Of a stretch of DNA of 64,000 nt, positions 16,405 through 29,689 are shown in pieces. This DNA is from a phage. Location: the NCBI GenBank assembly GCA_019234695.1, contig GCA_019234695.1_3937.1, one strand, 5' to 3'. The notes below the pieces were generated by a model that was not told the origin of the DNA, did no database searches, and saw nothing but the letters and a program-made list of their open reading frames with translations. Every line of letters begins with the position of its first letter. Within the stretch, counting starts at the first letter, position 1. A program made the position numbers and the translations under genes.

Positions 16405-16816
16405 AAGCTCTCCGAATAACCCTATTAAGCATCTCTAAAGTCAGCTTTCCAGACTCTAAATGTGGCATAACAAGCTTTAAAGCTTTTTCAACATCATGCA
16501 CAATATCAATTATACCTTCCTCATAGGCTTCTACGAGGATATCTTTTACACCGATATAGCCTTCATTGATAATGATTTGCATATCAAAATCTTCTGATTG
16601 CTTGTTTAACTTACCTCTCCAATACCCATCAGCATTAAAAGATATCACTTCACACTCTTTAAAATCCATACCATCTGCATGGAATGGAGTAATTATTGTG
16701 CATTGGATTGGGTACTCTACACCAGTGGTGTCAACATCAAAGACCTTCACAGAAGTAAGTGGTTTCTTTGTTTTAGAGCAGTAAACTGTCAACCTTTTAC
16801 CAATAAGCTCTTTCAT
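16394..16816 (-). CDS. hypothetical protein
   Basis: ORF track; operon packing. Confidence 0.5.
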   Translation of the reverse strand: MKELIGKRLTVYCSKTKKPLTSVKVFDVDTTGVEYPIQCTIITPFHADGMDFKECEVISFNADGYWRGKLNKQSEDFDMQIIINEGYIGVKDILVEAYEEGIIDIVHDVEKALKLVMPHLESGKLTLEMLNRVIRRAYEN

Positions 16817-16868
16817 TTCGCTACCTTCTAAGTTTCTACAAAGGGGCTATCAAGTAACCCCTAAGTTA

Positions 16869-17093
16869 TTACTCAGACTTTTCAGTCTTCTTATCGGATT
16901 TCTTACTAGTCTTCTTCTCAGCTTTCTGCTCAGGTTCCTTCTCAGGAGTTGCCTTGATAACCATATCAAGAAGCTCTGATAAGTCACTCTTCAGCAAAGT
17001 AACAGGCTGCTCGTTGTAGAAGTTTTTGTCAAGATAAACTTTAAACTCTTCTATAGAAGGAAATCCAAAAATTGGTACAGGTGTCTTAATCAT
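16869..17093 (-). CDS. hypothetical small protein with Lys/Glu-rich tail
   Basis: ORF track. Confidence 0.4.
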   Translation of the reverse strand: MIKTPVPIFGFPSIEEFKVYLDKNFYNEQPVTLLKSDLSELLDMVIKATPEKEPEQKAEKKTSKKSDKKTEKSE

Positions 17094-17169
17094 TACTTAG
17101 TCTCTCCATAGGCATCTTTTAAGATTGCCTTGTTAATCATTTCAGCGATTGCAAAACGAACACATACAG

Positions 17170-17703
17170 CTATAATTGTAGGTTGCATTCTTTACTTACC
17201 TCTTCAAGTTTAACCTCAGAGTCCTTAAGTCGTTTCTTATGAACTCTGAACCTCATTAGTGAGATGATGATACCAGCTAAAGGAACAGCATACAAGTACC
17301 AAACATCATGTACCTTTGCAGTAATCTGTGTAATGGTCAAGTCTTGAGCTATGCAGCTAATTGCTGATACTGTCAGTAACATTGCTAAGAAGAACGCCAG
17401 TACCATAACAATACTTAGGCAGCCTCTGGCATGGTGTTCATGCTTAATACATTTGTTCTTTTCGTCAACAACCCTGTTGTAGTCGTTTGTAAAGTCTCTG
17501 TAGAAAGCTTTCAAGTATTCTTGATTGTAGCCTTCAAAGCAACCTGTACCATACCAATAATCACCACCAAAATGTGCTATGATACCAGTATCTCCATTTG
17601 GTTTGGTTACTCTTAAAGAAGTATGATGACGAGTATCCTGATAATCTATCTTATATCTCTCTTCAAAAATCATTTTCCAACCCCTCTCAATCGTTTGTTC
17701 CAT
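17170..17703 (-). CDS. hypothetical membrane protein
   Basis: ORF track; two C-terminal hydrophobic segments. Confidence 0.5.
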   Translation of the reverse strand: MEQTIERGWKMIFEERYKIDYQDTRHHTSLRVTKPNGDTGIIAHFGGDYWYGTGCFEGYNQEYLKAFYRDFTNDYNRVVDEKNKCIKHEHHARGCLSIVMVLAFFLAMLLTVSAISCIAQDLTITQITAKVHDVWYLYAVPLAGIIISLMRFRVHKKRLKDSEVKLEEVSKECNLQL

Positions 17704-17888
17704 TCAAGGTCAACAAATCTTTGCAGGACTTTCCCTCTAGGTGTTACACCTTTTAAATCTGCATCGTAACAATGGTAAAAGTCACCTTCAGCATGTTTAC
17801 CATAGCATTTTCTGATATTCTGGCTTCTGCGATACTGTTCTAACAAGGACAGTTTGTAGTAATCTTCAACTGTAGTTAGTTTTTTCAT
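17670..17888 (-). CDS. hypothetical small protein
   Basis: ORF track. Confidence 0.4.
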   Translation of the reverse strand: MKKLTTVEDYYKLSLLEQYRRSQNIRKCYGKHAEGDFYHCYDADLKGVTPRGKVLQRFVDLEWNKRLRGVGK

Positions 17889-18430
17889 TCTTTCACCATA
17901 GCATTTCTGAACTGACGTTGTGTTTCTCTTGTAATTTCGTTTGGAGTAAACCCTGCTTTTAGCATATCTCTGAAAAGAATTTCTAAATGGTTCCTCTCAA
18001 TGATGTGAATGGCATTCTGAATAGCTGTTTTGCGCTCCTTCAGGTCACTACTAATCTCTTCGCACTTACTGGTAAGTTCTGTGTCAACTTTCTTATAGAC
18101 TGGCATAACATGTGCGTAGCAACCTTTATTAGTCTCCATGAAAAATTTAAAAGATTCTTCAGAGTCCTTTAGAGCAATCCCTATAAAGTTCTTGTAAGCA
18201 CCTGTGAAAGATAAGGACTCAATCTCAGCAGTTGAGTATACAGTCCCTGCACACAGCCTTGCAGAAGTACTAAATGTGTGGTTTGGTGTCATGTCAAAAT
18301 CTAAGTTCTTCAGTGGCCTGAAATAAACAATACCGTTGTGTGAGATATGTGTTACAACAGCCTCAACATTCTTTGACGGATTCTGTTTAACGTACAAAAT
18401 TATTTTATCTTTTTCTTTCACTGTAGCCAT
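17885..18430 (-). CDS. hypothetical protein
   Basis: ORF track; 4-nt overlap with downstream gene. Confidence 0.5.
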   Translation of the reverse strand: MATVKEKDKIILYVKQNPSKNVEAVVTHISHNGIVYFRPLKNLDFDMTPNHTFSTSARLCAGTVYSTAEIESLSFTGAYKNFIGIALKDSEESFKFFMETNKGCYAHVMPVYKKVDTELTSKCEEISSDLKERKTAIQNAIHIIERNHLEILFRDMLKAGFTPNEITRETQRQFRNAMVKE

Positions 18431-18502
18431 ATCTATTCTCCAGAAACTAAAAAGGGAACTACCTCTCGATAGCTCCCATCATAATTAATGTTGTATACTC
18501 AG

Positions 18503-19084
18503 TCAAGAGTATTTTTTAGGCAGTAATGCACTACGCTTGTTACTTTCCTCACTCAGTAGTGCGATAAATTCATCACCTTTGCCTTTCCACGGGCTAAATG
18601 TAGGGATGTGTTCTCTGATAGCCTCAATCACTGTCTTCAGTGCGTTATTCTTTAACCACCAATCAGATACTGCCGATGCTACAACATAGTAAGCACCATC
18701 ATCTGTGAAGATTGGCTCAGAGATACATGGTGAAATCATAGTGGTAATGATAGAGCCATTATTCATGTAGTATGTTCTTTTTTCAACCTTGTCAAGAAGC
18801 TTATGAAGGTCTGCAAAGAGACTTACCACCTCTTTATGGTCAATATCTTTTTCAAGACTTGCTCTGTACTTTAATAGTGCAGCATCAACCTCTTTATCAT
18901 TGAATTTGAAGTACTGGACTTCTTCATTCACACATACGCTGATATTGTTGGTGTTTATCGTCAATTTGCACAGTTTGACTGGAGAGTTGATGTTGGTCTG
19001 AAAAAGTGCTACACAGCCCTCTACATTCCCGAAATGCTTGACTAATGTAACTTCTGGTTGAATATGCTCATGTTCTTCTGACAT
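18503..19084 (-). CDS. hypothetical protein
   Basis: ORF track. Confidence 0.5.
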   Translation of the reverse strand: MSEEHEHIQPEVTLVKHFGNVEGCVALFQTNINSPVKLCKLTINTNNISVCVNEEVQYFKFNDKEVDAALLKYRASLEKDIDHKEVVSLFADLHKLLDKVEKRTYYMNNGSIITTMISPCISEPIFTDDGAYYVVASAVSDWWLKNNALKTVIEAIREHIPTFSPWKGKGDEFIALLSEESNKRSALLPKKYS

Positions 19085-19428
19085 TATAGTTTCCTCATTA
19101 AATACTTTTTAAGTTGTGTGTTAGGTTTCTCAAAAACTTCTATAGAAGATATCTTGACAGACTCACCACGCATTCCTGTATGTTTGAATATATAGTACTC
19201 TAACATCCCTATGTACTTTGCTGGTAAGTCATGTTTGACATATACCGTTACAGAATCTTCAAATTCAACAACCTTTGTACCATCTTTGTAGTTAAACTCT
19301 TTAGGATGGTTATAGTTGTCAATGTCATACATTAAAAAGAGTCTTTTCCGTTGTAAGTCAAGCTTATTGGTTAAAGACTCTTTGATATCTGAGAAGTTTT
19401 TGTACACTGTGACATGGAGCTTACTCAT
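19084..19428 (-). CDS. hypothetical protein
   Basis: ORF track; start-stop overlap. Confidence 0.5.
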   Translation of the reverse strand: MSKLHVTVYKNFSDIKESLTNKLDLQRKRLFLMYDIDNYNHPKEFNYKDGTKVVEFEDSVTVYVKHDLPAKYIGMLEYYIFKHTGMRGESVKISSIEVFEKPNTQLKKYLMRKL

Positions 19429-19714
19429 CGTTAAACTCTCTGACGAAGAAATAGTTGACTTTATTATTACCTACCATAAGGTCAAAGCAGGTATTCTCAA
19501 AAGGTTTGTTGTAGGCATCGTATGAAGTGTACGTATCAGCTACTTGTTTAGTATTGAGCTTTTTACTTGATGGGTTTAAGAGGCCACCATACAGCTTCTT
19601 GATAGCCTCTTCTACAACAGACCAGATAATTTCGTCAGTAATTTCTTCGTACAGGTCAAGTTCACGCTCTAGTGAGAAGTCACAAATAGGGAAAACAACC
19701 TGTACTTTACTCAT
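19421..19714 (-). CDS. hypothetical protein
   Basis: ORF track. Confidence 0.45.
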   Translation of the reverse strand: MSKVQVVFPICDFSLERELDLYEEITDEIIWSVVEEAIKKLYGGLLNPSSKKLNTKQVADTYTSYDAYNKPFENTCFDLMVGNNKVNYFFVREFNDE

Positions 19715-20112
19715 TAACGAATAACCTGTGAGACTTGAATTGCTTCGGTTACTGACAAGTCACCTACTTTCTCTTCTTTGATAAAGGTGAAGGTAAGTTC
19801 AACAGGTTCTTGCTTTTCTTGCTCAACTGGAATGCCATTAAGCTCATCACGGATTGATTGAGTTGTCCAGTCTTCTCCACCATCTGGATAATGGATGGCG
19901 TAAAGAGGGAACTCCATATCATACCAGCCAAATACAGGACAGCCATCTGCATCATCTCGCATCCTACGTAGTGTGCTACCTGAGCCTGTAAAACGAAGGC
20001 TGATATTACCATTACACTCAAAGATTACTGCATCAGCAAGACCAGCGTCTTCACGGCCATCATGCCCAAACGTGTCAACTTTTACTTGAATATCTCTAAC
20101 ATCTTTATTCAT
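19714..20112 (-). CDS. hypothetical protein
   Basis: ORF track. Confidence 0.5.
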   Translation of the reverse strand: MNKDVRDIQVKVDTFGHDGREDAGLADAVIFECNGNISLRFTGSGSTLRRMRDDADGCPVFGWYDMEFPLYAIHYPDGGEDWTTQSIRDELNGIPVEQEKQEPVELTFTFIKEEKVGDLSVTEAIQVSQVIR

Positions 20113-20503
20113 AAAAACCTCTCTCTGCTTGTTCGATTTTTGCTCTTAAAGCTTCGCAATGCTGTAGATGGTAGTTAGCTTCTTGTTCATGTGTTGCTAA
20201 CTGCCTTTCCAGAACAGTTTTATAGTAACCTGCAAGTTGCTCTTTTGTCAATGGGTGCTCTGAAATAATATCAAGTCCACTTTCACCAAGAGGGTTGAAT
20301 TGTCCATGTTCGTTGACATTGTAAGTCTCAAACTTGAACAGGCCATTGTTCACAGACTCAATAGGTGACAGCTCAACAAGCTCTACAGTAAACCGTGTAT
20401 ATACCTTGTCACCTCTTGAAACCACATTGTTCCCGACAATGCGTACAAGCGAGCCATTACGAGTGTACTTAAAAGTTCCAAAGTCACTAGCCCAAAGTTT
20501 CAT
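20105..20503 (-). CDS. hypothetical protein
   Basis: ORF track; AGGAG RBS after the endolysin terminator. Confidence 0.5.
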   Translation of the reverse strand: MKLWASDFGTFKYTRNGSLVRIVGNNVVSRGDKVYTRFTVELVELSPIESVNNGLFKFETYNVNEHGQFNPLGESGLDIISEHPLTKEQLAGYYKTVLERQLATHEQEANYHLQHCEALRAKIEQAERGFYE

Positions 20504-20523
20504 AGTTTTCTCCTTAGAAAATA

Positions 20524-20546
20524 AAAAAGGCTCCCGAAGGAGCCTA
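20524..20546 (-). terminator. intrinsic terminator downstream of endolysin (minus strand)
   Basis: minus strand reads GGCTCC-TTCG-GGAGCC-TTTTTT. Confidence 0.65.
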
Positions 20547-20554
20547 TGAAGATA

Positions 20555-21019
20555 TTACTTTGGGTATACACTGTCAAGATAAATGTCAGCTTCCATTCTA
20601 CGTCTGTTTTTCAGACCGTTTGAAGTGACCTTCTTACCTTTGACTGTAACCTTGTTCCACCACTGCATAGCTTCTGCACAACCTACCTTATTACCAGCAT
20701 TGTGGCGCTTGATAAATGTGGAATCCTGCATAGCTGTGATACCGATGTTGTATGTTTCACTTACAAGTGCATCGAACTCATTCTGAGTAGTTGGAACCTT
20801 GATAGCTTTGTTCACTGCTGCAACAAACTTCTCAACATCCGCGAGAAGATACTGTTCAGCTTGTTCAGCGGTGATTTTCATTCCCATCTTAACAGGTTTT
20901 CCGTCAATACGAATTGTACCATACCCGATTGTTGGGATTCCGGCAGAGTCTTCGTAAGCCTCTAACTCAAGACCTTCGAAGAACTTAATAGCGTCTAAAC
21001 CTTTTCTTGAGAGTTGCAT
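20555..21019 (-). CDS. endolysin, GH24 lysozyme (T4 e / lambda R type)
   Basis: 154 aa; FEGLELEAYEDSAGIPTIGYG catalytic-region motif; followed by hairpin plus T-tract on minus strand. Confidence 0.85.
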   Translation of the reverse strand: MQLSRKGLDAIKFFEGLELEAYEDSAGIPTIGYGTIRIDGKPVKMGMKITAEQAEQYLLADVEKFVAAVNKAIKVPTTQNEFDALVSETYNIGITAMQDSTFIKRHNAGNKVGCAEAMQWWNKVTVKGKKVTSNGLKNRRRMEADIYLDSVYPK

Positions 21020-21903
21020 TACGCCTCCCCTGCTGGGTTAACTGTAACTGTTGCTGCATTGGATGTTACAGAGCCACCTGCACCAGTAACTACACAGGTG
21101 TAGCTTCCTGCATCAGCAGCGGTTGCACCTTCTTTGGTGTAAGTTGCAGTAGTTGCATCGAGGATGTCTTCCTCACCTTTCTTCCATTGGTAACCTGTCG
21201 CACCTGTTGCCACAACATTCAGTGTTAAGGTCTCACCTTCAGTGATTTCTTGATTGGTTGGTTGCTGAGTGATTACTGGAAGTGCATTCACAGTCACTGT
21301 TGCTGCATCTGAGGTAACACTTGTTCCACCCTCTCCAGATACAACGCAAGTGTATGAACCAGCATCAGAAGGTGCTACTGACTGTTTTGTGTAAGTTGCA
21401 GAATTGGCACTAGGGATATCCTCACCATCCTTCTTCCACTGATATCCAGTGGCGTTAGTTGCTAGAATGCTTAGAGTAAGTGTGCCACCCTCATTGACTG
21501 TTTGACCTGTTGGTTGCTGAGTAATTGCTGGTGGCTTAATAGCATCCTTCAGCTTAGCATTCAACATTGAGAACGGCTTAACTCTTGCCAACCATTCACA
21601 GTAAATAGTGTCAACATCTTTACCATTGATGATTGCATACTGCAAATCCATGAAGAAATCAGCAGTTCTCATCTGTGCACCAACACTGTAAAGGAGTTCA
21701 TCACTAAAAGGAACTTTGTAGTCTGGTTTGTAATCAAACTTCTCAACTTCTGCAATATCAGCTTCAGGCCAATATGAGCTATAGGTGAGTGGTAAAATAG
21801 CCTCTTGATATGTTCTAAAATCATATCTCTTACCAGCTTTTACGTTTGCAATGAAGCCCTTCACAAACTCTTTAAAGTCTGGGTAAGTCTTTGCTTTAAT
21901 CAT
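21019..21903 (-). CDS. protein with two tandem Ig-like domains
   Basis: two repeats of ...TQQPT.Q...EG.TLTL...ATGATGYQWKK.GEDI...ATYTK...AGSYTCVV.G.GG; N-terminal domain paralogous to 21900..22271. Confidence 0.55.
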   Translation of the reverse strand: MIKAKTYPDFKEFVKGFIANVKAGKRYDFRTYQEAILPLTYSSYWPEADIAEVEKFDYKPDYKVPFSDELLYSVGAQMRTADFFMDLQYAIINGKDVDTIYCEWLARVKPFSMLNAKLKDAIKPPAITQQPTGQTVNEGGTLTLSILATNATGYQWKKDGEDIPSANSATYTKQSVAPSDAGSYTCVVSGEGGTSVTSDAATVTVNALPVITQQPTNQEITEGETLTLNVVATGATGYQWKKGEEDILDATTATYTKEGATAADAGSYTCVVTGAGGSVTSNAATVTVNPAGEA

Positions 21904-22271
21904 TTATTTTCAGCCTCTAAATGTGCGTTTAGTCTAAAATAACCTTTGTGATTCGGAGATACATCACCAACAACAATACCTTTAACCTTATAACCTTTAC
22001 CAATTACATACTGGATATCCATAAGGAATCTTCCAAGACCAACAATATGGAACATTGGATATAATAGATTCTCAGAGTCTGGAATATTGATTTCGGGTTT
22101 GTAGGTGCATTGTTCGATTGTTGGTGTAATATCTTCTTCAGGCCATTTACTGAGTCTCCATGTCAAAGGTGTTGGGATAACATCATTAATGTTGTACCTT
22201 TCACCATTTTGCACGGAATTGATATAGGATTGTAGGAAGCAATAAAAGTCTTTTGCACTCTTAGCTTTCAT
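21900..22271 (-). CDS. hypothetical protein, paralog of N-terminal domain of the Ig-like protein
   Basis: shared pattern (FxxFxxxYIxxVxxGxRY..., MDLQYxIxxGK) with 21019..21903 N-terminus. Confidence 0.5.
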   Translation of the reverse strand: MKAKSAKDFYCFLQSYINSVQNGERYNINDVIPTPLTWRLSKWPEEDITPTIEQCTYKPEINIPDSENLLYPMFHIVGLGRFLMDIQYVIGKGYKVKGIVVGDVSPNHKGYFRLNAHLEAENK

Positions 22272-22318
22272 TAAATATCCTTATAAATAGTTAAAGGGGC
22301 ATCAGCCCCTATTCACAC

Positions 22319-22909
22319 TTAAGCTTTGGTCTTAAGTAGGTTCTTAAGTTTTTTAAGATTCATACTCTCATCAAACTTAAAACCAAATCCATTGACATAA
22401 TCAATGAACTCGGATTTCTTACTGAGTGACAATGCGTAACTCATATCAAAGTTCTTACTTGTTTCTGCGTCTGGACTAGAGTTCACATCAAATGAAATTT
22501 CTGTAGGCTCTTGCTTACTTTTTCTCATATTATCAACCAACAAACATGTATAGTTTGCTGGATAGAAATTTACACTACCATCAACGTAGCTGTACTTATT
22601 ATTATGGATAAGGTTGGAAAATACCTTAAGGAATGTTTCTGAGTCGTGGCAAACAAGTTTGAATTGGCTGCTCTCTCCAAGCGCAACTAATGAGTACGGG
22701 CTTTCACTATCAAAGTCATAATTTGGATTCGATGACGTTACTGTTACACGCATCAAGTTATTAGCAATAGTCTTCTGTTTAAAAGAATTTGGAACATAGT
22801 GAAGACCTCTATCACACTGATTAACTAATTCTTTCAATAGGTCATTTGCATATGGTGAGTTAATTGATACAGAGCCATCACTATTGTAATTAAAACTTAC
22901 TGTTAACAT
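22319..22909 (-). CDS. hypothetical protein
   Basis: ORF track. Confidence 0.5.
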   Translation of the reverse strand: MLTVSFNYNSDGSVSINSPYANDLLKELVNQCDRGLHYVPNSFKQKTIANNLMRVTVTSSNPNYDFDSESPYSLVALGESSQFKLVCHDSETFLKVFSNLIHNNKYSYVDGSVNFYPANYTCLLVDNMRKSKQEPTEISFDVNSSPDAETSKNFDMSYALSLSKKSEFIDYVNGFGFKFDESMNLKKLKNLLKTKA

Positions 22910-23136
22910 TTTTCAGTTCTCCTGCGATTTATAATTTTGCTGCAATAGAGAAACGAAGTAAACTCACTGGAAGAAACCATTAAGTGTTGTTCACTAGATT
23001 GAGCCATTGCCCTGAAATACATTCCAGTCAAAGCATCATAGTGACTATTCTTTCCAATTGAGGTTATATAGCCATGACTCTTTGCAGTTTGATATAAATC
23101 TATAATATCTGCGATTTCTAATTGGGAACTACACAT
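22903..23136 (-). CDS. hypothetical small protein
   Basis: ORF track. Confidence 0.4.
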   Translation of the reverse strand: MCSSQLEIADIIDLYQTAKSHGYITSIGKNSHYDALTGMYFRAMAQSSEQHLMVSSSEFTSFLYCSKIINRRRTEKC

Positions 23137-23300
23137 AGATAATCCTCTTGTCTTCTGTAATTTTGAAAGAACAGGTACAGACCAATTTCAGAGGATGAAT
23201 AGTAGATTGACTCTACCCTTTTTGATTCCTTACAGTGATTGGTATTCTTACCTTTCTTCGGTTTATTTGATTTTCTCATTAAGTCTCCTTTGTAGAACAA
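23118..23300 (-). CDS. hypothetical small basic protein
   Basis: ORF track; first gene of leftward operon. Confidence 0.3.
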   Translation of the reverse strand: MFYKGDLMRKSNKPKKGKNTNHCKESKRVESIYYSSSEIGLYLFFQNYRRQEDYLCVVPN

Positions 23301-23528
23301 GGCAGACCTACAGCTTTAAGTAAGATGGTACAGTAATCCATACAACAAGTCAAGAACTATTGCAAGTTAAAAAAGTTGTTGACAAAGTACTTGACAAGGT
23401 GTAGGCTTATAAATACTTAGAAGATAACTTAAAAGGTTCCTCTAAAAAGGCTATTTAAACAGATATCTTTCTGGATATCTATCTTTTATCTTAAAAGCCT
23501 TTTAAGAGGTCTTATAAGAGGCATACCA

Positions 23529-23900
23529 ATGAAAAACAGAACAAACAAAGGCCAGTTTAAAAAAGGCCAGTCTGGAAACCCATCTGGAAGACCAAAAGGC
23601 TCTCGTAACAAAAGCTCACTTGTAAAAGCTCAACTGACCATTGATAATTCTGCTGAGTTTGCTGCAAAGTTGTTTGAAGCAATTGTTACAAGGGATGCTG
23701 CTAAGCTTGCAGAGTTCGGGTTAAACACAGACGACGTAACCATCAAGAGCATGATTGAGGTCGGTAAAACTATCATGACTCACTCAGCAGGTGAGATGAA
23801 AGCCATTGCAGCAGACACTAAGAAGACTCCTGATAACGGTGGTCAGTCTCAGACAGATAACAAACCAACGTTCTCTGCTGTTGCAACCCTCAAAAAATAA
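23529..23900 (+). CDS. hypothetical protein with GNPSGRPKG motif
   Basis: ORF track; AAGAGG RBS; N-terminal KGQSGNPSGRPKGSRNK basic motif. Confidence 0.5.
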   Translation: MKNRTNKGQFKKGQSGNPSGRPKGSRNKSSLVKAQLTIDNSAEFAAKLFEAIVTRDAAKLAEFGLNTDDVTIKSMIEVGKTIMTHSAGEMKAIAADTKKTPDNGGQSQTDNKPTFSAVATLKK

Positions 23901-23912
23901 TTTTAAAAGATG

Positions 23913-23942
23913 TTGACAGACTCTACAAAGTTGCTCTAAAGT
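23913..23942 (+). promoter_or_regulatory. promoter embedded in inverted repeat, upstream of Ro60-like gene
   Basis: TTGACA-18-TAAAGT; flanked by inverted repeat TGACAGACT / AGTCTGTCA. Confidence 0.4.
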
Positions 23943-23981
23943 CTGTCACATCAAACAACAAATGAGAGAAGAGAGTAAAAT

Positions 23982-25397
23982 ATGAGCGAATTATTTAAAC
24001 ATGCGAACCTTCATGCAGGTCGAACTGAAAATGGTGCTGTAAACCATACTTCATCAATGTCTGCTCTTGTAGACTTTTACAAAGCTGCTGGTTCAAGCCG
24101 TAGCAACGTAGAAATCTTACCAGACCTGTTCTACAAAGCTTTGCGTGAGGATGTTGATGTTGCAGTTCGTATTTTGCTTCATATGCGAGATGTACGAGAA
24201 GGTATGGGTGAGCGTAAAGCCTTCAGAACTGTTTTGCTTCAAGCAATTGAAGATAAAGTTTTAGAGCCTACACAGGTTCTTCGCATTATGGATAAGATTG
24301 CAGAACTTGGTCGTTTTGATGACTTCAAAATCTTCGTGGGTACTTGTTTCGAGACAGATGCCTTCAAACATTTAGAAGCAGCATTACTAGACCCTGCAAC
24401 AGCAGGTTTGGCGGCTAAGTGGTTACCACGAGTCAAACCACGTCATAAGCAGTTTGTAAAACGTTTCTGCAAGTTTGCCAACTTGAGTGAGAAAGAGTAC
24501 CGCACACTGTTGTCTGCACTATCTGATACAGTTGAGCAAAAAATCTCTGCTAATGAGTTTGGTAAGATTGACTACAGTAAGATTCCTTCACTTGCTGCTG
24601 CACGTTACCAAAAACTGTTTAACCGTAAAGATGGAGAGCGTTACAAAGCTTACATCGAGTCCTTATCAAAAGGTGAGACTAAGATTAGCGCTGGTGCTGT
24701 TTACCCATACGATGTGATTAAATCCGTCAAGCATGGTAATGCAGATGTTGCTAATGAGCAGTGGAAAGCACTACCAAACTGGATGGCAGAAGGTGAAAAC
24801 ATCTTGTGTATGTCTGATGTATCAAGTTCAATGTCTTGGGTGAATTTTGGCTCCATTACTGCTCTGGATATTGGTGTATCACTTGCCTTGTATGTAGCAG
24901 AACGCAATACAGGTTGCTTTAAGAATGAGTTGATGGTTTATTCAACAAACCCTCACTTCATCGAACTGAGTGGTGATTTACGAAACCGTCATCGTCAGGT
25001 GATGCGACACGTTGAATATGGCTCAACTAACTTACAAGCAGCTTTTGACCGCATTCTTGAGACAGGCAAAAGAAACAACTTGACTCAGAAAGATATGCCA
25101 AGTAAGCTTATCATCTTCTCCGATATGGAGTTTAATCAGGTTGATGGGGCTAACGGTCGTACAAACTTTGAAGCAATTCAGAGTAAGTACAAAAAAGCTG
25201 GATATGAGATGCCACAACTGGTATTCTGGTACTTAGCAAACCGTAATGGTACTTGCGAAGTATCTGTTAAGGATAACGGTGTAGCAATGGTATCAGGGTT
25301 CTCTCCAGCCACTTTAAAAGCTCTGCTTGGTGGTGAGAAGTTTGACCCAATCAGTGTAATGCTCAAAGCAGTAATGATTGACCGTTATATCTGGTAA
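23982..25397 (+). CDS. Ro60-like protein (helical N-terminal domain plus vWA/MIDAS domain)
   Basis: 471 aa; SDVSSSM (DxSxS MIDAS), LIIFSDMEFN and GFSPATLKAL align by eye with human Ro60 vWA segments DVSASM, FIVFTDNETF, GFDTGAL (recalled). Confidence 0.5.
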   Translation: MSELFKHANLHAGRTENGAVNHTSSMSALVDFYKAAGSSRSNVEILPDLFYKALREDVDVAVRILLHMRDVREGMGERKAFRTVLLQAIEDKVLEPTQVLRIMDKIAELGRFDDFKIFVGTCFETDAFKHLEAALLDPATAGLAAKWLPRVKPRHKQFVKRFCKFANLSEKEYRTLLSALSDTVEQKISANEFGKIDYSKIPSLAAARYQKLFNRKDGERYKAYIESLSKGETKISAGAVYPYDVIKSVKHGNADVANEQWKALPNWMAEGENILCMSDVSSSMSWVNFGSITALDIGVSLALYVAERNTGCFKNELMVYSTNPHFIELSGDLRNRHRQVMRHVEYGSTNLQAAFDRILETGKRNNLTQKDMPSKLIIFSDMEFNQVDGANGRTNFEAIQSKYKKAGYEMPQLVFWYLANRNGTCEVSVKDNGVAMVSGFSPATLKALLGGEKFDPISVMLKAVMIDRYIW

Positions 25398-25560: not shown

Positions 25561-25637
25561 ATCTCTGTTTAGCTCAGCTTGGTAGAGCGTTCCGTTTGGG
25601 GCGGTAAGGCCGGAGGTTCAAGTCCTCCAACAGAGAC
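25561..25637 (+). tRNA. tRNA-Pro (anticodon TGG)
   Basis: manual cloverleaf; acceptor CTCTGTT/AACAGAG, T-arm GGAGG-TTCAAGT-CCTCC, CCA encoded. Confidence 0.65.
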
Positions 25638-25644
25638 CAAATTA

Positions 25645-25722
25645 ATGTTCCAGTGGACAAAATGGTAAAGTCACCACTCTTTCAAAGTGGATATTTGAGG
25701 GTTCAAATCCCTTCTGGAACGC
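25645..25722 (+). tRNA. tRNA-Glu (TTC)
   Basis: manual fold; anticodon arm CCACT-CTTTCAA-AGTGG; T-loop TTCAAAT. Confidence 0.7.
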
Positions 25723-25728
25723 CAGTTT

Positions 25729-25802
25729 TGACAGAAGACCAATTACAGCAAACTTAATCTTATTCATCTGAAGGTAAATCGGACAAAGAAGAGATTTGGT
25801 CT
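25729..25802 (+). ncRNA. structured hairpin RNA E1 (Y RNA-like family)
   Basis: 5-prime ACAGAAGACCAATTACAGCAA pairs with 3-prime TTGGTCTGG; between tRNA-Glu and tRNA-Met. Confidence 0.45.
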
Positions 25803-25813
25803 GGTCATTAAGA

Positions 25814-25890
25814 ATTGCGGGTATAGAGAAAGGGCGTCTCACATGTCTCATTAGCATGGTATCGGCAGGTTCGACTCCTGCACCCGCCTC
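25814..25890 (+). tRNA. tRNA-Met (CAT), atypical
   Basis: anticodon arm CATGT-CTCATTA-GCATG; 1-72 mismatch and 3-nt connector before D-stem. Confidence 0.5.
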
Positions 25891-25895
25891 CAAAT

Positions 25896-25960
25896 TTACA
25901 GAAGACCGTTTACAGCAATATTTATTAAATTTTTAGCGGAAAAATTGAAAGATACGGTCT
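25896..25960 (+). ncRNA. structured hairpin RNA E2 (Y RNA-like family)
   Basis: 5-prime ACAGAAGACCGTTTACAGCAA pairs with 3-prime ACGGTCTGG; compensatory change relative to E1/E3. Confidence 0.45.
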
Positions 25961-25973
25961 GGTAATACTAAAC

Positions 25974-26050
25974 ATGGTTAGGAAGCACATAAGGTATGTG
26001 CGGTCGCCTGTTAAGCGAATGGCACAGGGTTCGAATCCCTGACTAACCGC
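25974..26050 (+). tRNA. tRNA-Asn (GTT)
   Basis: anticodon loop CTGTTAA; D-stem GCAC/GTGC; T-arm CAGGG-TTCGAAT-CCCTG. Confidence 0.7.
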
Positions 26051-26119
26051 CAAATTTAGGAGAGAAGCGATTGCTCACCGATTTGTAAGGTTCAAGTCCT
26101 TAGCCTGAATAGAAATCAA

Positions 26120-26207
26120 ATGTGTCGTTATCCCGTAGATGGTAGCGGTGGGGACTGTAAATCCCTTGTCATTGAGACTCGGTAGGTTCGACTCCTACAC
26201 GGCACAC
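26120..26207 (+). tRNA. tRNA-Tyr (GTA), long variable arm
   Basis: 88 nt; anticodon loop CTGTAAA; T-arm GTAGG-TTCGACT-CCTAC. Confidence 0.7.
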
Positions 26208-26213
26208 CAAATA

Positions 26214-26291
26214 AAGGTTATGTAGTTTAATCTGGTTAAAATACTCCCCTGTCACGGGAGATGATGAGGGTTCAAATCCCTTCATAACCGC
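26214..26291 (+). tRNA. tRNA-Asp (GTC)
   Basis: perfect acceptor GGTTATG/CATAACC; anticodon arm CTCCC-CTGTCAC-GGGAG. Confidence 0.8.
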
Positions 26292-26352
26292 CAATTTTGA
26301 GAGGGCTATTTAGCCCCTCCCTTAAAGAGTTCTTACGAGTATTCTTTAAAGG

Positions 26353-26426
26353 AGCAGAAGACCAAATACAGCAAGCATGTATGAAATTTCAAACCAATTC
26401 AATTTTGAAAATTTAAAACTTGGTCT
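26353..26426 (+). ncRNA. structured hairpin RNA E3 (Y RNA-like family)
   Basis: 5-prime CAGAAGACCAAATACAGCAA pairs with 3-prime TTGGTCTGG. Confidence 0.45.
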
Positions 26427-26438
26427 GGCTCAACAAAT

Positions 26439-26571
26439 TTACAGAAGACCGTTTACAGCAAAACTTAAACAATCTATTTCTCCGGTAAAGAAAAGGCGAG
26501 GGTTCGATTCCTTCACTCGGCAGATGTCGAGTTGGTGTAATGGTAGCACTTAAGATGATAAACAACGGTCT
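26439..26571 (+). ncRNA. candidate Y RNA (YrlA-like) with permuted tRNA-like module
   Basis: terminal stem AGACCGTT / AACGGTCT; internal order T-arm (GAGGG-TTCGATT-CCTTC), ACTCGGC, 4-nt loop, GTCGAGT, D-arm (GTGTAATGGTAGCAC). Confidence 0.5.
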
Positions 26572-26573
26572 GG

Positions 26574-26716
26574 TAATTATCTTTGTAGATAAGTTATTAA
26601 GCTTACCTGTGAGTATGCGACCACAAAGGGTGAATGGGTAAATTCTAGATTTAAACCCAAAAAGGCACATCGCTACAGACCTTAAGCAAGTCTGGGTAGC
26701 TTATCTACAAAGATAA
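26574..26716 (+). ncRNA. long hairpin element with 18-bp terminal inverted repeat
   Basis: ATTATCTTTGTAGATAAG (26574-26591) is the exact reverse complement of CTTATCTACAAAGATAAT (26699-26716); ~107 nt interior with sub-hairpins. Confidence 0.4.
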
Positions 26717-26720
26717 TTTA

Positions 26721-26796
26721 ATGGAAGTGTAGCAGAATGGTGATGCGGCAGACTTTTAATCTGACAGGCGATGGGTTCGAATCCCTCCACTTCTAC
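26721..26796 (+). tRNA. tRNA-Lys (TTT), weak T-stem
   Basis: anticodon loop CTTTTAA; acceptor GGAAGTG/CACTTCT; T-stem has two mismatches. Confidence 0.55.
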
Positions 26797-26800
26797 CAAT

Positions 26801-26877
26801 ATGGTTCAGTCGCAGATAAGGTAATGCAAGGGTCTCATAAGCCCTATGAATGTGGGTTCGATTCCCATCTGAACCTC
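26801..26877 (+). tRNA. tRNA-Met (CAT)
   Basis: perfect acceptor GGTTCAG/CTGAACC; anticodon arm AGGGT-CTCATAA-GCCCT. Confidence 0.7.
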
Positions 26878-26878
26878 C

Positions 26879-26954
26879 AAGCTGGTATAGTTAAGAAGGT
26901 TATAACACTCCCCTGATAAGGGAACATCGGTGGTTCGATTCCACCTACCAGTAC
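26879..26954 (+). tRNA. tRNA-Ile (GAT)
   Basis: anticodon loop CTGATAA; T-arm GGTGG-TTCGATT-CCACC. Confidence 0.75.
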
Positions 26955-26969
26955 CAATTTCAATAAAGT

Positions 26970-26998
26970 TGTTGACATTGAGATGTGACTACTTTATA
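26970..26998 (+). promoter_or_regulatory. internal sigma70-like promoter within tRNA cluster
   Basis: TTGACA-17-TATAGT after tRNA-Ile; precedes ~200 nt tRNA-free structured segment. Confidence 0.55.
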
Positions 26999-27200
26999 GT
27001 AACCTTAGTTTTCGTTGCGTAGCGTCTATTTTGCAAATTTAAAATAAATGCAAACGACAATGTTTTTCTGGCAGTAGCTTGATAGGCTAAACACCAGTGA
27101 GGTCTTCCAATCCCTCATCAAAGAATTTGGCGTACTCGCCCACGGTATGATTAATAAGGTGGGCATCTTTAAGGGCTTTCTAAGAGAGTCTTTAAAGATA

Positions 27201-27277
27201 ATGCACCCTTAGTTCAATTGGATAGAGCAACGGTCTTCTAAATCGTTAGTTACAGGTTCGAATCCTGTAGGGTGTAC
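27201..27277 (+). tRNA. tRNA-Arg (TCT)
   Basis: anticodon arm ACGGT-CTTCTAA-ATCGT; T-arm ACAGG-TTCGAAT-CCTGT. Confidence 0.8.
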
Positions 27278-27419
27278 CAAATAGTTAGCAGATTACTTAG
27301 ACGGCCTTAGCGGGTCTTCCTGTAGGGAGGTGGTCTGTATCTCATGTTTTCCAGAACATGTAAATAATCTGAGAAGGAGCTTGACAGTGTTGAGATAACA
27401 GGGTAAGCTTCGAATTATA

Positions 27420-27502
27420 ATATGGGACGATGTTAAGACTCTAAGGCATGAGCAACGGCCTCCAAAACCGTTTCAAAGGGGTTCAACTCCTCCGTCCCAT
27501 GC
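27420..27502 (+). tRNA. tRNA-Trp (CCA)-like, atypical
   Basis: perfect acceptor ATGGGAC/GTCCCAT; anticodon loop CTCCAAA; ~7 extra nt between acceptor and D-arm. Confidence 0.45.
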
Positions 27503-27515
27503 CAAAGTCTTATTA

Positions 27516-27603
27516 GGGGTAGGTAGCGGCTAATGGTAGCCAAACTGTCTTGAAAACAGTTGCCACTGTAGAGATACGGTGAGGGTTCGACTCCTTTACT
27601 TAC
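27516..27603 (+). tRNA. tRNA-Ser (TGA), long variable arm
   Basis: anticodon arm ACTGT-CTTGAAA-ACAGT; 20-nt variable arm; CCA not encoded. Confidence 0.75.
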
Positions 27604-27757
27604 CGCCTAATAAGATTTACTCCGTCCATGCTTGTTCGCATTGTCGGTTTATCCCTCGTGTATTGTCGTACACTGTCAAAGCACCTAGTAGGTGTCACGG
27701 AGAAGAGATAATATCAAGCTCTCCAAAGGTTCTAGTCACCGGATTAAACAAGACTAT

Positions 27758-27780
27758 GCAAAGACCTATTTAGGTCTTTT
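27758..27780 (+). terminator. terminator-like hairpin inside tRNA cluster
   Basis: AGACCTA-TT-TAGGTCT followed by TTTTT. Confidence 0.45.
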
Positions 27781-27859
27781 TAGAGGGCTTCTAAGGTTAT
27801 TAGTCGCTTGTTGTGGAACCTTGTTGCTTAGGTTCTTAGAAGTTCTCTAAAAAGATTTA

Positions 27860-27937
27860 ATGGGAGATTGACGGTAATTGGTAAACCTACCATCCTTAGA
27901 AGTTGGTGTTTGAGGGTTCGAATCCCTTGTCTCCTAC
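27860..27937 (+). tRNA. tRNA with anticodon TAG (Leu by anticodon), short variable arm
   Basis: acceptor GGGAGAT/GTCTCCT; anticodon loop CTTAGAA; discriminator A; 5-nt variable region. Confidence 0.5.
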
Positions 27938-27944
27938 CAAATTA

Positions 27945-28020
27945 ATGCAGGTGTAGCAAAATGGTTATGCGGCTGACTCTTAATCAGTAAGACGATGGGT
28001 TCAATTCCCTCCACCTGTAC
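27945..28020 (+). tRNA. tRNA-Lys (CTT), weak T-stem
   Basis: paralog of 26721..26796; anticodon arm GCTGA-CTCTTAA-TCAGT. Confidence 0.55.
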
Positions 28021-28026
28021 CAAACA

Positions 28027-28102
28027 TTGGGGATGTAGTTTACATGGTTAAAACATAAGTTTTGCAAACTTAAGTACAGGGTTCAATTCCCTGCTTCTCC
28101 AC
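28027..28102 (+). tRNA. tRNA-Ala (TGC)
   Basis: anticodon arm TAAGT-TTTGCAA-ACTTA; T-arm CAGGG-TTCAATT-CCCTG. Confidence 0.7.
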
Positions 28103-28108
28103 CAATTA

Positions 28109-28183
28109 GTGCATCCATAGTTTAAACGGGAAAATTACAGTCTTCCAAACTGAGGTTGAGGGTTCGATTCCCTCTGGATGCTC
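28109..28183 (+). tRNA. tRNA-Gly (TCC)
   Basis: perfect acceptor GCATCCA/TGGATGC; anticodon loop CTTCCAA; 75 nt. Confidence 0.7.
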
Positions 28184-28189
28184 CAAACA

Positions 28190-28266
28190 ATGCTGCTTTC
28201 GTATAATTGGCTATTACACATCCCTTGTAAGGATGGAAATGCAGGTTCGAGTCCTGTGAGCAGCAC
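28190..28266 (+). tRNA. tRNA-Thr (TGT)
   Basis: anticodon arm CATCC-CTTGTAA-GGATG; T-arm GCAGG-TTCGAGT-CCTGT. Confidence 0.8.
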
Positions 28267-28269
28267 CAA

Positions 28270-28357
28270 TTCAGAGGTCAAGTGAAAGACCGCTTTGAGT
28301 CAACTGAAGACCGTAACAAATACCACGGAGTTGAGTTAGCGGCACAACTTCAGACCT
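28270..28357 (+). ncRNA. structured hairpin RNA E5 (divergent member)
   Basis: outer stem CAGAGGTC / GACCTCTG; internal CTGAAGACCGTAACAAA resembles the E-family 5-prime motif. Confidence 0.35.
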
Positions 28358-28362
28358 CTTTC

Positions 28363-28437
28363 ATACTCGCTTAGTTTATATGGTAAAACATCACCCTTAC
28401 AAGATGAAGAAAAAGGTTCAAGTCCTTTAGTGAGTAC
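28363..28437 (+). tRNA. tRNA-Val (TAC)
   Basis: anticodon loop CTTACAA; T-arm AAAGG-TTCAAGT-CCTTT. Confidence 0.7.
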
Positions 28438-28438
28438 C

Positions 28439-28516
28439 ATGTTCCAGTATCCCAATTGGCAGAGGATGCAAGCTCAAACCTTGTATTAGTGACGGTTCGA
28501 ATCCGTCTTGGAACAC
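28439..28516 (+). tRNA. tRNA with anticodon CAA (Leu by anticodon), short variable arm
   Basis: acceptor GTTCCAG/TTGGAAC; anticodon arm GCAAG-CTCAAAC-CTTGT; discriminator A. Confidence 0.5.
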
Positions 28517-28521
28517 CAATT

Positions 28522-28597
28522 TTGCAGGATTAGTTCAAATGGAAAGAGCAACAGTCTACGAAGCTGTTAATAGGGGTTCGAATCCCTTATCCTGCGC
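28522..28597 (+). tRNA. tRNA-Arg (ACG)
   Basis: perfect acceptor GCAGGAT/ATCCTGC; anticodon loop CTACGAA. Confidence 0.8.
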
Positions 28598-28616
28598 CAG
28601 ATAAAAAGGTGATACT

Positions 28617-29413: not shown

Positions 29414-29420
29414 AGATTTA

Positions 29421-29496: not shown

Positions 29497-29498
29497 AA

Positions 29499-29577: not shown

Positions 29578-29582
29578 AAATT

Positions 29583-29658: not shown

Positions 29659-29689
29659 ACTTCTAAGGATTCTTACGAGAGTCCTTAAA

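What the first reader, a model, noticed from the sequence alone, without database searches (positions are those of the whole stretch)
21019..22271. Tandem Ig-like domain protein and a paralogous single-domain gene in the leftward block
ORF 21019..21903 carries two immunoglobulin-like repeats (Y-x-W-K-K...A-T-Y-T-K...G-S-Y-T-C-V-V) after an N-terminal domain that is duplicated as the adjacent ORF 21900..22271. Ig-like domains on phages usually decorate virions and mediate weak adhesion to carbohydrates, but this gene lies outside the structural module, next to the endolysin.
Basis: partly seen in the sequence, partly recalled or inferred. Interest (0 to 1): 0.4.

Follow-up and report, generated by a model that had tools for sequence, protein, structure and literature searches.

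The report
Hoc-like capsid decoration gene plus anchor-only paralog
The two-Ig-domain gene is the already described and structurally solved "Hex-Dec" head-decoration protein of Felix O1-like phages, and its small neighbour is a conserved but dispensable copy of its capsid-anchor domain whose role is still unknown.

Summary
ORF 21019..21903(-) encodes 294 aa: a ~120-aa N-terminal domain plus two I-set Ig domains that are 68% identical to each other. ORF 21900..22271(-) encodes 123 aa and is a paralog of that N-terminal domain (38% identity, E 6e-17).

The window is a Felixounavirus. The 294-aa protein is the ortholog of Bas63 Hex-Dec (PDB 9NCF chain S) and Sf14 gp20 (9C2D chain S). [quoted passage not shown] Orthologs were found in virions by mass spectrometry (Felix O1 Gp36, Sf14 gp20). 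The Bas63 paper already notes that the gene lies outside the structural module. Both anchoring arginines (R79, R107) and their partner, MCP Asp221, are encoded in this window. The main finding is therefore already known.

The part not discussed in the papers I read is the paralog:
- It has the CapBD fold and lacks both arginines.
- It is under purifying selection (dN/dS ~0.13) and is transcribed late with Hex-Dec.
- It is not among the proteins reported from Felix O1 virions, scores "Not Fit" in a SUSP1 knock-down screen, and is a decayed remnant in one lineage.

Its function is unresolved.

The parts
21019..21903 (-). Hex-Dec gene (294 aa): Hoc-like hexamer-centre capsid decoration protein, ortholog of Bas63 Hex-Dec, Sf14 gp20 and Felix O1 Gp36
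   Evidence: phmmer against PDB: 9ncf_S E 2.2e-248, 9c2d_S E 7e-168. phrog_3995 E 2e-171. Syntenic in 9 relatives.
21544..21903 (-). Capsid-binding domain (CapBD), residues 1-120, carrying Arg79 and Arg107
   Evidence: Residues 1-122 are near-identical to the modelled part of 9ncf_S. R79 and R107 are invariant in 43 Hex-Dec sequences. PMC11821841 reports that they salt-bridge MCP Asp221. dN/dS 0.04.
21286..21534 (-). Ig-like domain 1 (residues ~124-206), I-set/Ig_3 type
   Evidence: Pfam Ig_3 residues 124-189. AF2 pLDDT ~95 beta-sandwich. Corresponds to Ig1 of Bas63 Hex-Dec.
21034..21285 (-). Ig-like domain 2 (residues ~207-290). Corresponds to the last (4th) Ig of Bas63 Hex-Dec, so the middle repeats are absent here
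   Evidence: Pfam Ig_2/I-set residues 209-288. Second phmmer stretch: query 207-292 aligns almost identically to 9ncf_S 374-458. 68% identical to Ig1.
21900..22271 (-). CapBD-only paralog (123 aa, phrog_4463, 'hypothetical protein'; = Felix O1 ORF37, Sf14 gp21, SUSP1 agp126)
   Evidence: BLASTP to Hex-Dec E 6e-17. phmmer 9ncf_S E 3.8e-12. The AF2 model hits only 9c2d_S and 9ncf_S in the PDB, TM 0.67-0.68. dN/dS 0.13. Present in 233 of 253 related phage records.
21900..21917 (-). Junction between the two genes: GAGG Shine-Dalgarno (21914-21917) inside the paralog's 3' end, and the ATGA stop/start overlap (21900-21903)
   Evidence: Sequence. GAGG and the overlapping or abutting stop/start are conserved in all 9 related loci inspected, including the divergent metagenomic phage L014.
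22283..22310 (-). Terminator-like hairpin AGGGGC-TGAT-GCCCCT plus T-rich tail, immediately upstream of the paralog
   Evidence: Sequence. Identical to the rho-independent terminator 'ggggctgatgcccctttaactatttat' listed in Felix O1 Table 2 (PMC3185647). The fold is only modestly better than shuffles, z -1.5, and the simple terminator scan did not pick it up.
20555..21019 (-). GH24 endolysin. Its ATG overlaps the Hex-Dec stop (TAATG)
   Evidence: Pfam Phage_lysozyme E 4.5e-41. Sequence.
20528..20545 (-). Strong intrinsic terminator closing the paralog / Hex-Dec / endolysin unit
   Evidence: AGGCTCCTTCGGGAGCCT followed by TTTTTATTTT. Annotated as a terminator in phage KhF2.
36916..38022 (+). Major capsid protein, the binding partner of Hex-Dec; Asp221 is present
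   Evidence: phmmer 9ncf_A E 2.8e-248, 9c2d_A E 2.3e-233. The residues ...KIRDAY... place D at position 221.
36505..36882 (+). Beta-tulip decoration protein, the second decoration protein of the same capsid
   Evidence: phmmer 9ncf_J E 5.5e-79.

Best explanation
The window is a Felix O1-like phage (Felixounavirus). ORF 21019..21903(-) encodes the Hex-Dec capsid decoration protein.

Shown for orthologs by cryo-EM: one monomer sits in the centre of each pentamer-adjacent (facet-edge, quasi-3-fold) hexamer of the T=9 head, which is 60 sites per head by capsid geometry. The N-terminal ~120-residue capsid-binding domain holds it there, and Arg79 and Arg107 salt-bridge Asp221 of three MCP subunits. 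The Ig domains are flexible and were not resolved.

Inferred here: the two C-terminal Ig domains of this phage project outward as a short flexible fibre. By analogy with T4 Hoc they would mediate weak adhesion to surfaces or glycans, or modulate particle aggregation, rather than stabilise the shell. The number of Ig domains (1 to 4 in relatives) changes by gain or loss of whole repeats. This phage carries the first and last repeats of the 4-domain Bas63 protein.

The gene sits in a three-gene unit, paralog / Hex-Dec / endolysin, with overlapping stop and start codons. This arrangement is conserved across Ounavirinae.

The upstream 123-aa ORF is an ancient duplicate of the capsid-binding domain alone. 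It is transcribed late with Hex-Dec. It has replaced both anchoring arginines while keeping its own strongly conserved surface in the same lobe. It is not among the proteins reported in virion proteomes and it is dispensable. My best guess (inferred, low confidence) is an accessory, non-virion or low-copy protein that uses the CapBD fold to contact a different site or a different assembly state of the capsid lattice than Hex-Dec does.
For: Identity of the phage: 95-98% nucleotide identity to Felixounaviruses.

Identity of the protein: phmmer to 9ncf_S E 2.2e-248 and 9c2d_S E 7e-168, with residues 1-122 near-identical. phrog_3995 E 2e-171.

Structure and location of orthologs: PMC12609058 and PMC11821841.

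Virion mass spectrometry: Felix O1 Gp36 at 44% coverage (PMC3185647); Sf14 gp20 'Yes'.

Binding partners encoded here: R79 and R107 are invariant and MCP D221 is present.

Ig fold.

Domain correspondence to Bas63.

Synteny: conserved in Felixouna-, Moogle- and Suspvirus and in a divergent metagenomic phage. A single CapBD gene precedes the lysozyme in more distant relatives.

Paralog:
- CapBD fold.
- R79 is replaced by Gly in 98% of paralog sequences, and R107 by Gln/Asn.
- Residues 69-118 are the most conserved part of the paralog family.
- dN/dS 0.13.
- Felix O1 ORF36 and ORF37 are both maximally expressed at 60 min (PMC3185647 Table 3).
- Gp37 is not among the 17 Felix O1 virion proteins, although proteins of 9.7-13.7 kDa were detected.
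- The VpaE1 ortholog stayed 'hypothetical' in the paper's annotation table after virion MS.
- SUSP1 agp125 and agp126 are both 'Not Fit' in the CRISPRi-ART screen.
- A decayed remnant with identical breakpoints occurs in Z31, REP11, EcF-vB and vB_CECAV_041.
Against: No adhesion or glycan-binding data exist for any member of this family, so the Hoc-like function is an analogy.

The AF2 model of the Hex-Dec CapBD is poor (pLDDT below 50), so its fold here rests on sequence identity to the solved chains.

For the paralog there is no direct evidence of any binding partner. The proteomic absences are negative evidence. The CRISPRi-ART authors report false negatives, and the endolysin also scored 'Not Fit'. 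The Felix O1 RT-PCR timing places the overlapping endolysin gene at 25 min rather than 60 min, so the transcript structure of the unit is not settled.
Confidence: 0.9

Rival explanations
1. The 294-aa protein is a tail protein, as most GenBank records and PHROGs label it.
For: phrog_3995 is annotated 'tail protein'. Many records say 'putative tail protein'. Felix O1 Gp36 was called '(major) tail protein' after virion MS (PMC3185647). Ig domains also occur on major tail proteins (phrog_158 and phrog_853 hit the Ig region).
Against: The MS only showed that the protein is in virions, not where. Two independent cryo-EM studies model the N-terminal domain of orthologs in capsid hexamer centres (9NCF chain S, 9C2D chain S). 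The tail-protein PHROG hits cover only the Ig repeats.
Confidence: 0.03
2. The 123-aa paralog is a third, unrecognised capsid decoration protein. It would plug the 20 facet-centre (true 3-fold) hexamers that Hex-Dec cannot occupy. A monomer there would be smeared by 3-fold averaging in icosahedral maps.
For: It has the same fold as the capsid anchor. It is co-expressed late with Hex-Dec. The lobe that carries the capsid contacts in Hex-Dec is the most conserved part of the paralog, but with different residues. PMC11821841 attributes Hex-Dec's exclusion from true 3-fold hexamers to shifted Asp221 positions, so a differently tuned anchor could in principle fit.
Against: Both structure papers report no density on those hexamers. 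Gp37 is not among the reported Felix O1 virion proteins although smaller proteins were detected. The VpaE1 ortholog was not re-annotated as structural after MS. The gene is decayed in a viable lineage and is 'Not Fit' in SUSP1; that last point alone does not argue against a decoration role, because Hex-Dec also scores 'Not Fit'.
Confidence: 0.12
3. The paralog is a non-virion assembly or regulatory factor. For example, it could act as a transient placeholder on procapsid hexamers, or as a competitor or chaperone that tunes where and when Hex-Dec binds.
For: Late co-transcription and overlapping stop/start with Hex-Dec. Absence from the reported virion proteomes. Purifying selection.
Against: Phages that lost the paralog keep an intact Hex-Dec gene (REP11, vB_CECAV_041), so it is not an obligate chaperone. 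No interaction data exist. The loss of both Arg anchors argues against simple competition for the same site.
Confidence: 0.3
4. The paralog is a functionless duplicate on its way to being lost.
For: It is decayed in about 19 of 253 records. It shows no fitness effect in the SUSP1 knock-down screen. It is less constrained than the CapBD of Hex-Dec (dN/dS 0.13 against 0.04).
Against: It is retained intact, at constant length and position, in three genera and in a phage where it is diverged enough to fall in a separate 50%-identity cluster. dN/dS of 0.13 is clear purifying selection, similar to Ig1 (0.12) and to the endolysin (0.085). Many family-specific residues are invariant.
Confidence: 0.1

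Closest known systems
Bas63 Hex-Dec (PDB 9NCF chain S) and Sf14 gp20 (PDB 9C2D/9C3A chain S): Ounavirinae hexamer-centre decoration proteins
   Same: Orthologous. The N-terminal capsid-binding domain is near-identical to Bas63 and about 80% identical to Sf14. R79 and R107 are conserved. The Ig repeats are of the same I-set type. The gene has the same position between the paralog and the endolysin. The MCP partner with Asp221 is the same.
   Different: Only the number of Ig repeats differs: 2 here, 4 in Bas63, 3 in Sf14. The two repeats kept here correspond to the first and last of Bas63.
[quoted passage not shown]
   Same: A monomer at hexamer centres, built from a string of Ig-like domains plus a small capsid-binding domain. 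It is non-essential and acidic (Ig part pI 4.15 here). The Ig region hits Hoc-like PHROGs 2973 and 4069.
   Different: The domain order is reversed: the Hoc anchor is C-terminal. The anchor folds are topologically distinct with minimal sequence similarity (PMC12609058). Hex-Dec occupies only one class of hexamers and binds in one orientation (PMC11821841). The PHROG and PDB similarity is confined to the Ig repeats.
T5 pb10 decoration protein (PDB 5LXK, 8ZVI)
   Same: [quoted passage not shown] The Ig domain matches at E ~2e-12.
   Different: The match covers residues 128-207 only, so the anchor domain is unrelated by sequence. A Foldseek search with the model of the paralog, which shares the anchor fold, found only 9c2d_S and 9ncf_S in the PDB.
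Erwinia phage phiEa104 BIG2-domain protein (E5AFW9) and metagenomic relatives P0099, P0100 and P0103
   Same: The same CapBD family by profile search (E 8e-9 to 6e-5) and by fold (Foldseek E 2e-3). P0099, P0100 and P0103 are about 205 aa with one C-terminal beta-sandwich domain.
   Different: The displayed domain is Big_2 rather than I-set Ig. The paralog query gave no Erwinia phage match. One distant relative (P0102) carries a Lys-rich tail instead of any Ig domain.

Membership tests
Ounavirinae Hex-Dec / Sf14 gp20 decoration proteins | N-terminal capsid-binding domain homologous to the chains modelled in 9NCF and 9C2D | tested here: met
   phmmer E 2.2e-248 and 7e-168; residues 1-122 aligned without gaps.
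Ounavirinae Hex-Dec / Sf14 gp20 decoration proteins | Arg79 and Arg107, which anchor to MCP Asp221 | tested here: met
   R79 and R107 are present and invariant in the family. The window's MCP has D221. The contacts themselves are as reported in PMC11821841.
Ounavirinae Hex-Dec / Sf14 gp20 decoration proteins | C-terminal string of one or more Ig-like domains | tested here: met
   Two Pfam Ig_3/Ig_2/I-set stretches. AF2 pLDDT ~95. Foldseek top hits are tandem Ig modules.
Ounavirinae Hex-Dec / Sf14 gp20 decoration proteins | Gene located immediately upstream of the endolysin, away from the structural module | tested here: met
   Noted for Bas63 in PMC12609058.
Ounavirinae Hex-Dec / Sf14 gp20 decoration proteins | Physically bound at the centre of pentamer-adjacent hexamers of the T=9 capsid | not testable with these tools
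   Shown only for orthologs (cryo-EM; MS).
T4 Hoc family | Hoc-type C-terminal capsid-binding domain following N-terminal Ig domains | tested here: not met
   The anchor is N-terminal here. The Hoc-like PHROG hits (2973, 4069, 3945) align only to residues 120-292. The Bas63 authors report a distinct topology. It works like Hoc but is not a member.
T5 pb10 family | pb10-type N-terminal capsid-binding domain | tested here: not met
   PDB pb10 chains match only the Ig region, residues 128-207. A Foldseek search with the paralog model, which shares the CapBD fold, gave no pb10 hit.
phrog_4463 (CapBD-only paralog family) | Full-length match to the family profile and homology to the Hex-Dec CapBD | tested here: met
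   phrog_4463 E 3.9e-78 over residues 1-123. BLASTP to Hex-Dec E 6e-17. Foldseek to 9c2d_S and 9ncf_S, TM 0.67-0.68.
phrog_4463 (CapBD-only paralog family) | Capsid binding in the manner of Hex-Dec (Arg79/Arg107 anchors) | tested here: not met
   Gly at the R79 position in 98% of paralog sequences and Gln/Asn at the R107 position.
Mucus- or glycan-adhering Ig-decorated phages (BAM model; my own knowledge: Barr et al. 2013, Fraser et al. 2006) | Demonstrated binding of the Ig domains to glycans or mucin | not testable with these tools
   A search for Felixounavirus plus Ig-like plus mucus returned two papers, neither an experimental binding study: the Bas63 structure paper and a review of phages in liver disease.

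The most novel reading that the evidence does not exclude
The anchor-only paralog (21900..22271) is a functional third capsid-lattice ligand. It would be a re-tuned copy of the Hex-Dec anchor that recognises the 20 facet-centre hexamers, or a procapsid-state hexamer, that Hex-Dec cannot bind. Icosahedral averaging and shotgun proteomics would so far have missed it. That would make the pair a natural example of one anchor fold diversified to read different quasi-equivalent hexamer conformations.
Probability: 0.13. Interest if true: 0.5.

Novelty: already known. Interest (0 to 1): 0.22.

Why it matters
The practical value is in correcting annotation. This gene is labelled 'tail protein' in most Felix O1-like genomes, but it is a head decoration protein with a solved anchor.

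The Ig string is a natural display scaffold with a variable number of repeats. Felix O1-like phages are used for Salmonella and E. coli typing and for biocontrol, so a dispensable, surface-exposed protein is a candidate site for engineering.

The open point is the anchor-only paralog. It is conserved, expressed late and under selection, yet it has no reported virion presence and no laboratory phenotype. If it reads a different hexamer class or assembly state, it would show how decoration proteins discriminate between quasi-equivalent capsomers.

Tried and rejected
1. Internal duplication of the CapBD. The Bas63 authors report pseudo-C2 lobes L1 and L2. hhalign of the N-half against the C-half of the family alignment gave no significant signal (P 0.17, 9 columns). 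The symmetry is therefore visible only in the structure, not in the sequence.

2. A frameshift fusion of the paralog to Hex-Dec. The junction has no canonical X_XXY_YYZ slippery heptamer in this window. It carries a conserved GAGG Shine-Dalgarno and an ATGA overlap, which fits ordinary coupled or independent initiation. Rejected as unsupported.

3. Promoter scan of 16500..24200. It found 24 sigma-70-like sites against 20.4 expected from shuffles, which is uninformative. No late-promoter motif could be assigned.

4. AF2 model of full-length Hex-Dec. The CapBD came out at low confidence (pLDDT below 50). This agrees with the Sf14 authors' remark that the AlphaFold anchor did not match their density. 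I relied on sequence identity to the solved chains instead.

5. VpaE1 virion MS table. It is not held as text. Only the paper's annotation table could be read, and there ORF40c remains 'hypothetical'.

6. Sf14 supplement. It contains no mention of Sf14's own gp21.

7. Profile search of 1.84 billion representative proteins with the CapBD/paralog alignment. It returned only 13 hits, 12 of them full-length CapBD matches and those whose context I examined phage-borne; the 13th was a weak multi-stretch match. The fold has no detectable relatives with a known biochemical function.

8. A Gad1-like gene lies downstream of the unit in the divergent phage L014. No comparable large ORF exists in the corresponding part of this window.
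Full report
**Observation**

Both ORFs are present exactly as described, on the minus strand: 21019..21903 (294 aa) and 21900..22271 (123 aa).

- The quoted motifs occur twice (GYQWKK...ATYTK...GSYTCVV).
- Pfam finds two stretches each of Ig_3 (E 1e-22), Ig_2 (3e-18) and I-set (1.5e-15) at about residues 124-205 and 209-288.
- The two repeats are 68% identical (E 8e-37).
- An AlphaFold2 model built on 17 homologs gives two beta-sandwiches at pLDDT ~95. Its best PDB matches are tandem Ig modules of Robo, MuSK and titin.
- The first ~120 residues align with the whole neighbouring ORF at 38% identity, E 6e-17, and the PHROG profiles cross-match.
- The neighbour stops where the linker to the first Ig domain begins.
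- The downstream gene, 20555..21019, is a GH24 phage lysozyme (Pfam E 4.5e-41).

**What the genome is**

The 2.45-kb region is 95-98% identical to many Felixounavirus genomes, including KhF2, nataliec and VpaE1. The window also carries the Felix O1-type structural module. Its major capsid protein (36916..38022) and beta-tulip decoration protein (36505..36882) are near-identical to chains A and J of PDB 9NCF. A cluster of 26 tRNA genes lies between the two blocks.

**What the 294-aa protein is**

A sequence search of the PDB gives 9NCF chain S ('Immunoglobulin-like domain protein', 460 aa, E 2.2e-248) and 9C2D/9C3A chain S ('tail protein', 372 aa, E 7e-168). Residues 1-122 are almost unchanged. 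These entries are the icosahedral capsid reconstructions of Escherichia phage Bas63 (PMC12609058) and Shigella phage Sf14 (PMC11821841).

Both papers describe the protein, called Hex-Dec in Bas63 and gp20 in Sf14, as a Hoc-like decoration protein:
- It does not sit on the facet-centre hexamers.
- The Ig domains are flexible and unresolved.

Sf14 gp20 was detected in particles by mass spectrometry. So was Felix O1 Gp36, the direct ortholog, at 44% coverage (PMC3185647). That result is the origin of the misleading 'tail protein' label that PHROGs and GenBank still carry.

The Sf14 paper reports that Arg79 and Arg107 salt-bridge Asp221 of three MCP subunits. Both arginines are present here and invariant in the family. 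The MCP encoded in this window has Asp221.

**Domain count**

This protein has two Ig domains. Felix O1, VpaE1, Moogle, ESh22 and SUSP2 are also 294 aa. HY02 and UAB_Phi87 are 377 aa (three domains by the repeat length), Sf14 has three and Bas63 has four. Many metagenomic relatives are about 210 aa, enough for a single domain.

The second phmmer stretch shows that Ig2 here is almost identical to the last (4th) repeat of Bas63, while Ig1 matches Bas63 Ig1. This allele looks like the four-domain form without the two middle repeats. The Bas63 authors report 1 to 4 domains across the genus.

**Gene organisation**

- The paralog's TGA overlaps the Hex-Dec ATG (ATGA).
- A GAGG Shine-Dalgarno lies 11-14 nt upstream of that ATG, inside the paralog's last codons.
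- The Hex-Dec TAA overlaps the lysozyme ATG (TAATG).
- A strong intrinsic terminator follows the lysozyme at 20528..20545.
- A GC hairpin with a T-rich tail (22283..22310) sits just upstream of the paralog. It is the terminator listed in Felix O1 Table 2, though its fold is only modestly better than shuffled sequence.

The paralog / Hex-Dec / lysozyme order is conserved in Felixounavirus, Mooglevirus, Suspvirus and a much more divergent 87-kb metagenomic phage. In still more distant relatives a single CapBD gene sits directly before the lysozyme. The position next to the endolysin is therefore ancestral and not a recent transfer.

**The paralog**

Fold and homology:
- The 123-aa protein matches phrog_4463 ('unknown function', E 3.9e-78).
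- It hits only the two Hex-Dec chains in the PDB by sequence (E 4e-12 and 1.5e-11).
- Its AF2 model (pLDDT 71.5, pTM 0.71) superposes over its full length on 9c2d_S and 9ncf_S (TM 0.67-0.68). Nothing else in the PDB is significant. In BFVD it finds only the same family plus an Erwinia phage CapBD-Big_2 protein.

Distribution and selection:
- It is intact in 233 of 253 related phage records.
- dN/dS is 0.13, compared with 0.04 for the Hex-Dec CapBD, 0.12 for Ig1 and 0.085 for the lysozyme.

Sequence differences from Hex-Dec (alignment of 48 paralogs and 43 Hex-Dec CapBDs):
- The shared positions are core residues: F10, F13, G24-R-Y, P-L-T, W-P-E-x-D-I, L-L-Y, F-x-M-D-x-Q-Y and L-N-A-x-L.
- The position of Arg79 is Gly in 98% of paralogs, and Arg107 is Gln or Asn.
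- The C-terminal lobe (residues 69-118) carries both contacts in Hex-Dec. It is the most conserved part of the paralog family, but with different residues.

Expression and presence in virions:
- Felix O1 RT-PCR places ORF36 and ORF37 together among genes maximally expressed at 60 min, with tail and baseplate genes.
- Gp37 is not among the 17 Felix O1 virion proteins, although proteins of 9.7-13.7 kDa were detected.
- The VpaE1 ortholog remained 'hypothetical' in that paper's annotation table after virion MS.
- Neither structure paper mentions it.

Dispensability:
- In the SUSP1 CRISPRi-ART screen both orthologs are 'Not Fit': agp125 scores -0.39 and agp126 scores -0.91 (PMC11879866 source data). 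The screen has false negatives, and the lysozyme is also 'Not Fit'.
- Four phages from China, the USA, Egypt and Spain (Z31, REP11, EcF-vB, vB_CECAV_041) carry the same decayed remnant. The start codon is lost and there is an internal ~226-nt deletion with identical breakpoints. REP11 and vB_CECAV_041 keep an intact Hex-Dec.
- About 19 records lack an intact copy.

The paralog is thus a real, selected, late gene that is dispensable. It is not an obligate chaperone of Hex-Dec, and it is unlikely to bind the same site in the same way.

**Wider family**

A profile of paralogs plus CapBDs searched against 1.84 billion representative proteins found only 13 hits. Besides close Ounavirinae they include CapBD fused to a Big_2 domain (P0099, P0100, P0103), CapBD fused to a divergent Ig domain (P0101), and CapBD with a Lys-rich tail (P0102). 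The Erwinia phage phiEa104 BIG2 protein (204 aa) shares the fold. The anchor is the constant element and the displayed module is exchangeable. The duplication giving the anchor-only gene is restricted to the enterobacterial clade and the divergent phage L014.

**Mechanism and confidence**

Shown for orthologs, and transferable here by near-identity: the location on the capsid, the stoichiometric class of sites, and the Arg-Asp anchoring.

Inferred: the Ig string acts like Hoc in weak adhesion, aggregation control or environmental sensing. No binding data exist for this family; my search found no experimental binding study.

Low confidence: any specific role for the paralog. I rank the possibilities as follows:
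- a non-virion or transient capsid-lattice ligand, about 0.3;
- a facet-centre plug missed by symmetric averaging, about 0.12;
- a functionless duplicate, about 0.1.
The remainder is unknown.

**Verdict**

The feature is already described, structurally solved and published (2025), so it ranks low for novelty. The residual point of interest is the conserved anchor-only paralog, which the literature I could read does not discuss.

Noticed in passing
window 23982..25397 (+): A 471-aa protein with DUF2828 and DUF7788 domains (phrog_850, 'RNA-binding protein'). It is transcribed divergently from the leftward block and lies immediately upstream of the tRNA cluster. It is conserved at this position in all Ounavirinae loci inspected.
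   Followed up: no
window 25563..30774 (+): A cluster of 26 tRNA genes, including two tRNA-Met, with a few small ORFs interspersed. It lies between the leftward block and the structural module.
   Followed up: partly
L014 11510..12369 and L015 8967..9826: In the divergent metagenomic Ounavirinae-like phage, a Gad1-family (PF25705) gene lies about 4 kb downstream of the paralog / Hex-Dec / lysozyme unit. No comparable large ORF is present in the corresponding part of this window.
   Followed up: partly
L003 (Shigella phage Z31) 2998..3570: The Hex-Dec gene in Z31 is interrupted by a stop codon inside Ig1 and is annotated as two CDSs. The Sf14 paper notes similar premature stops in CHB7. The Ig part of this gene is evolutionarily labile while the anchor is kept.
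   Followed up: partly
window 22319..22909 (-): The 196-aa protein directly upstream (phrog_4034, unknown function) is conserved at this position in every relative inspected, with dN/dS 0.08. In the distant phage L017 the equivalent 185-aa gene has a faint Phage_Inh_N hit.
   Followed up: no
window residue 81 of the paralog (codon at about 22029..22031): This phage's paralog has Arg at position 81, where 92% of the family has Thr. This is two residues from the position equivalent to Hex-Dec Arg79. It may be neutral, but it is worth noting if anyone tests capsid binding.
   Followed up: no
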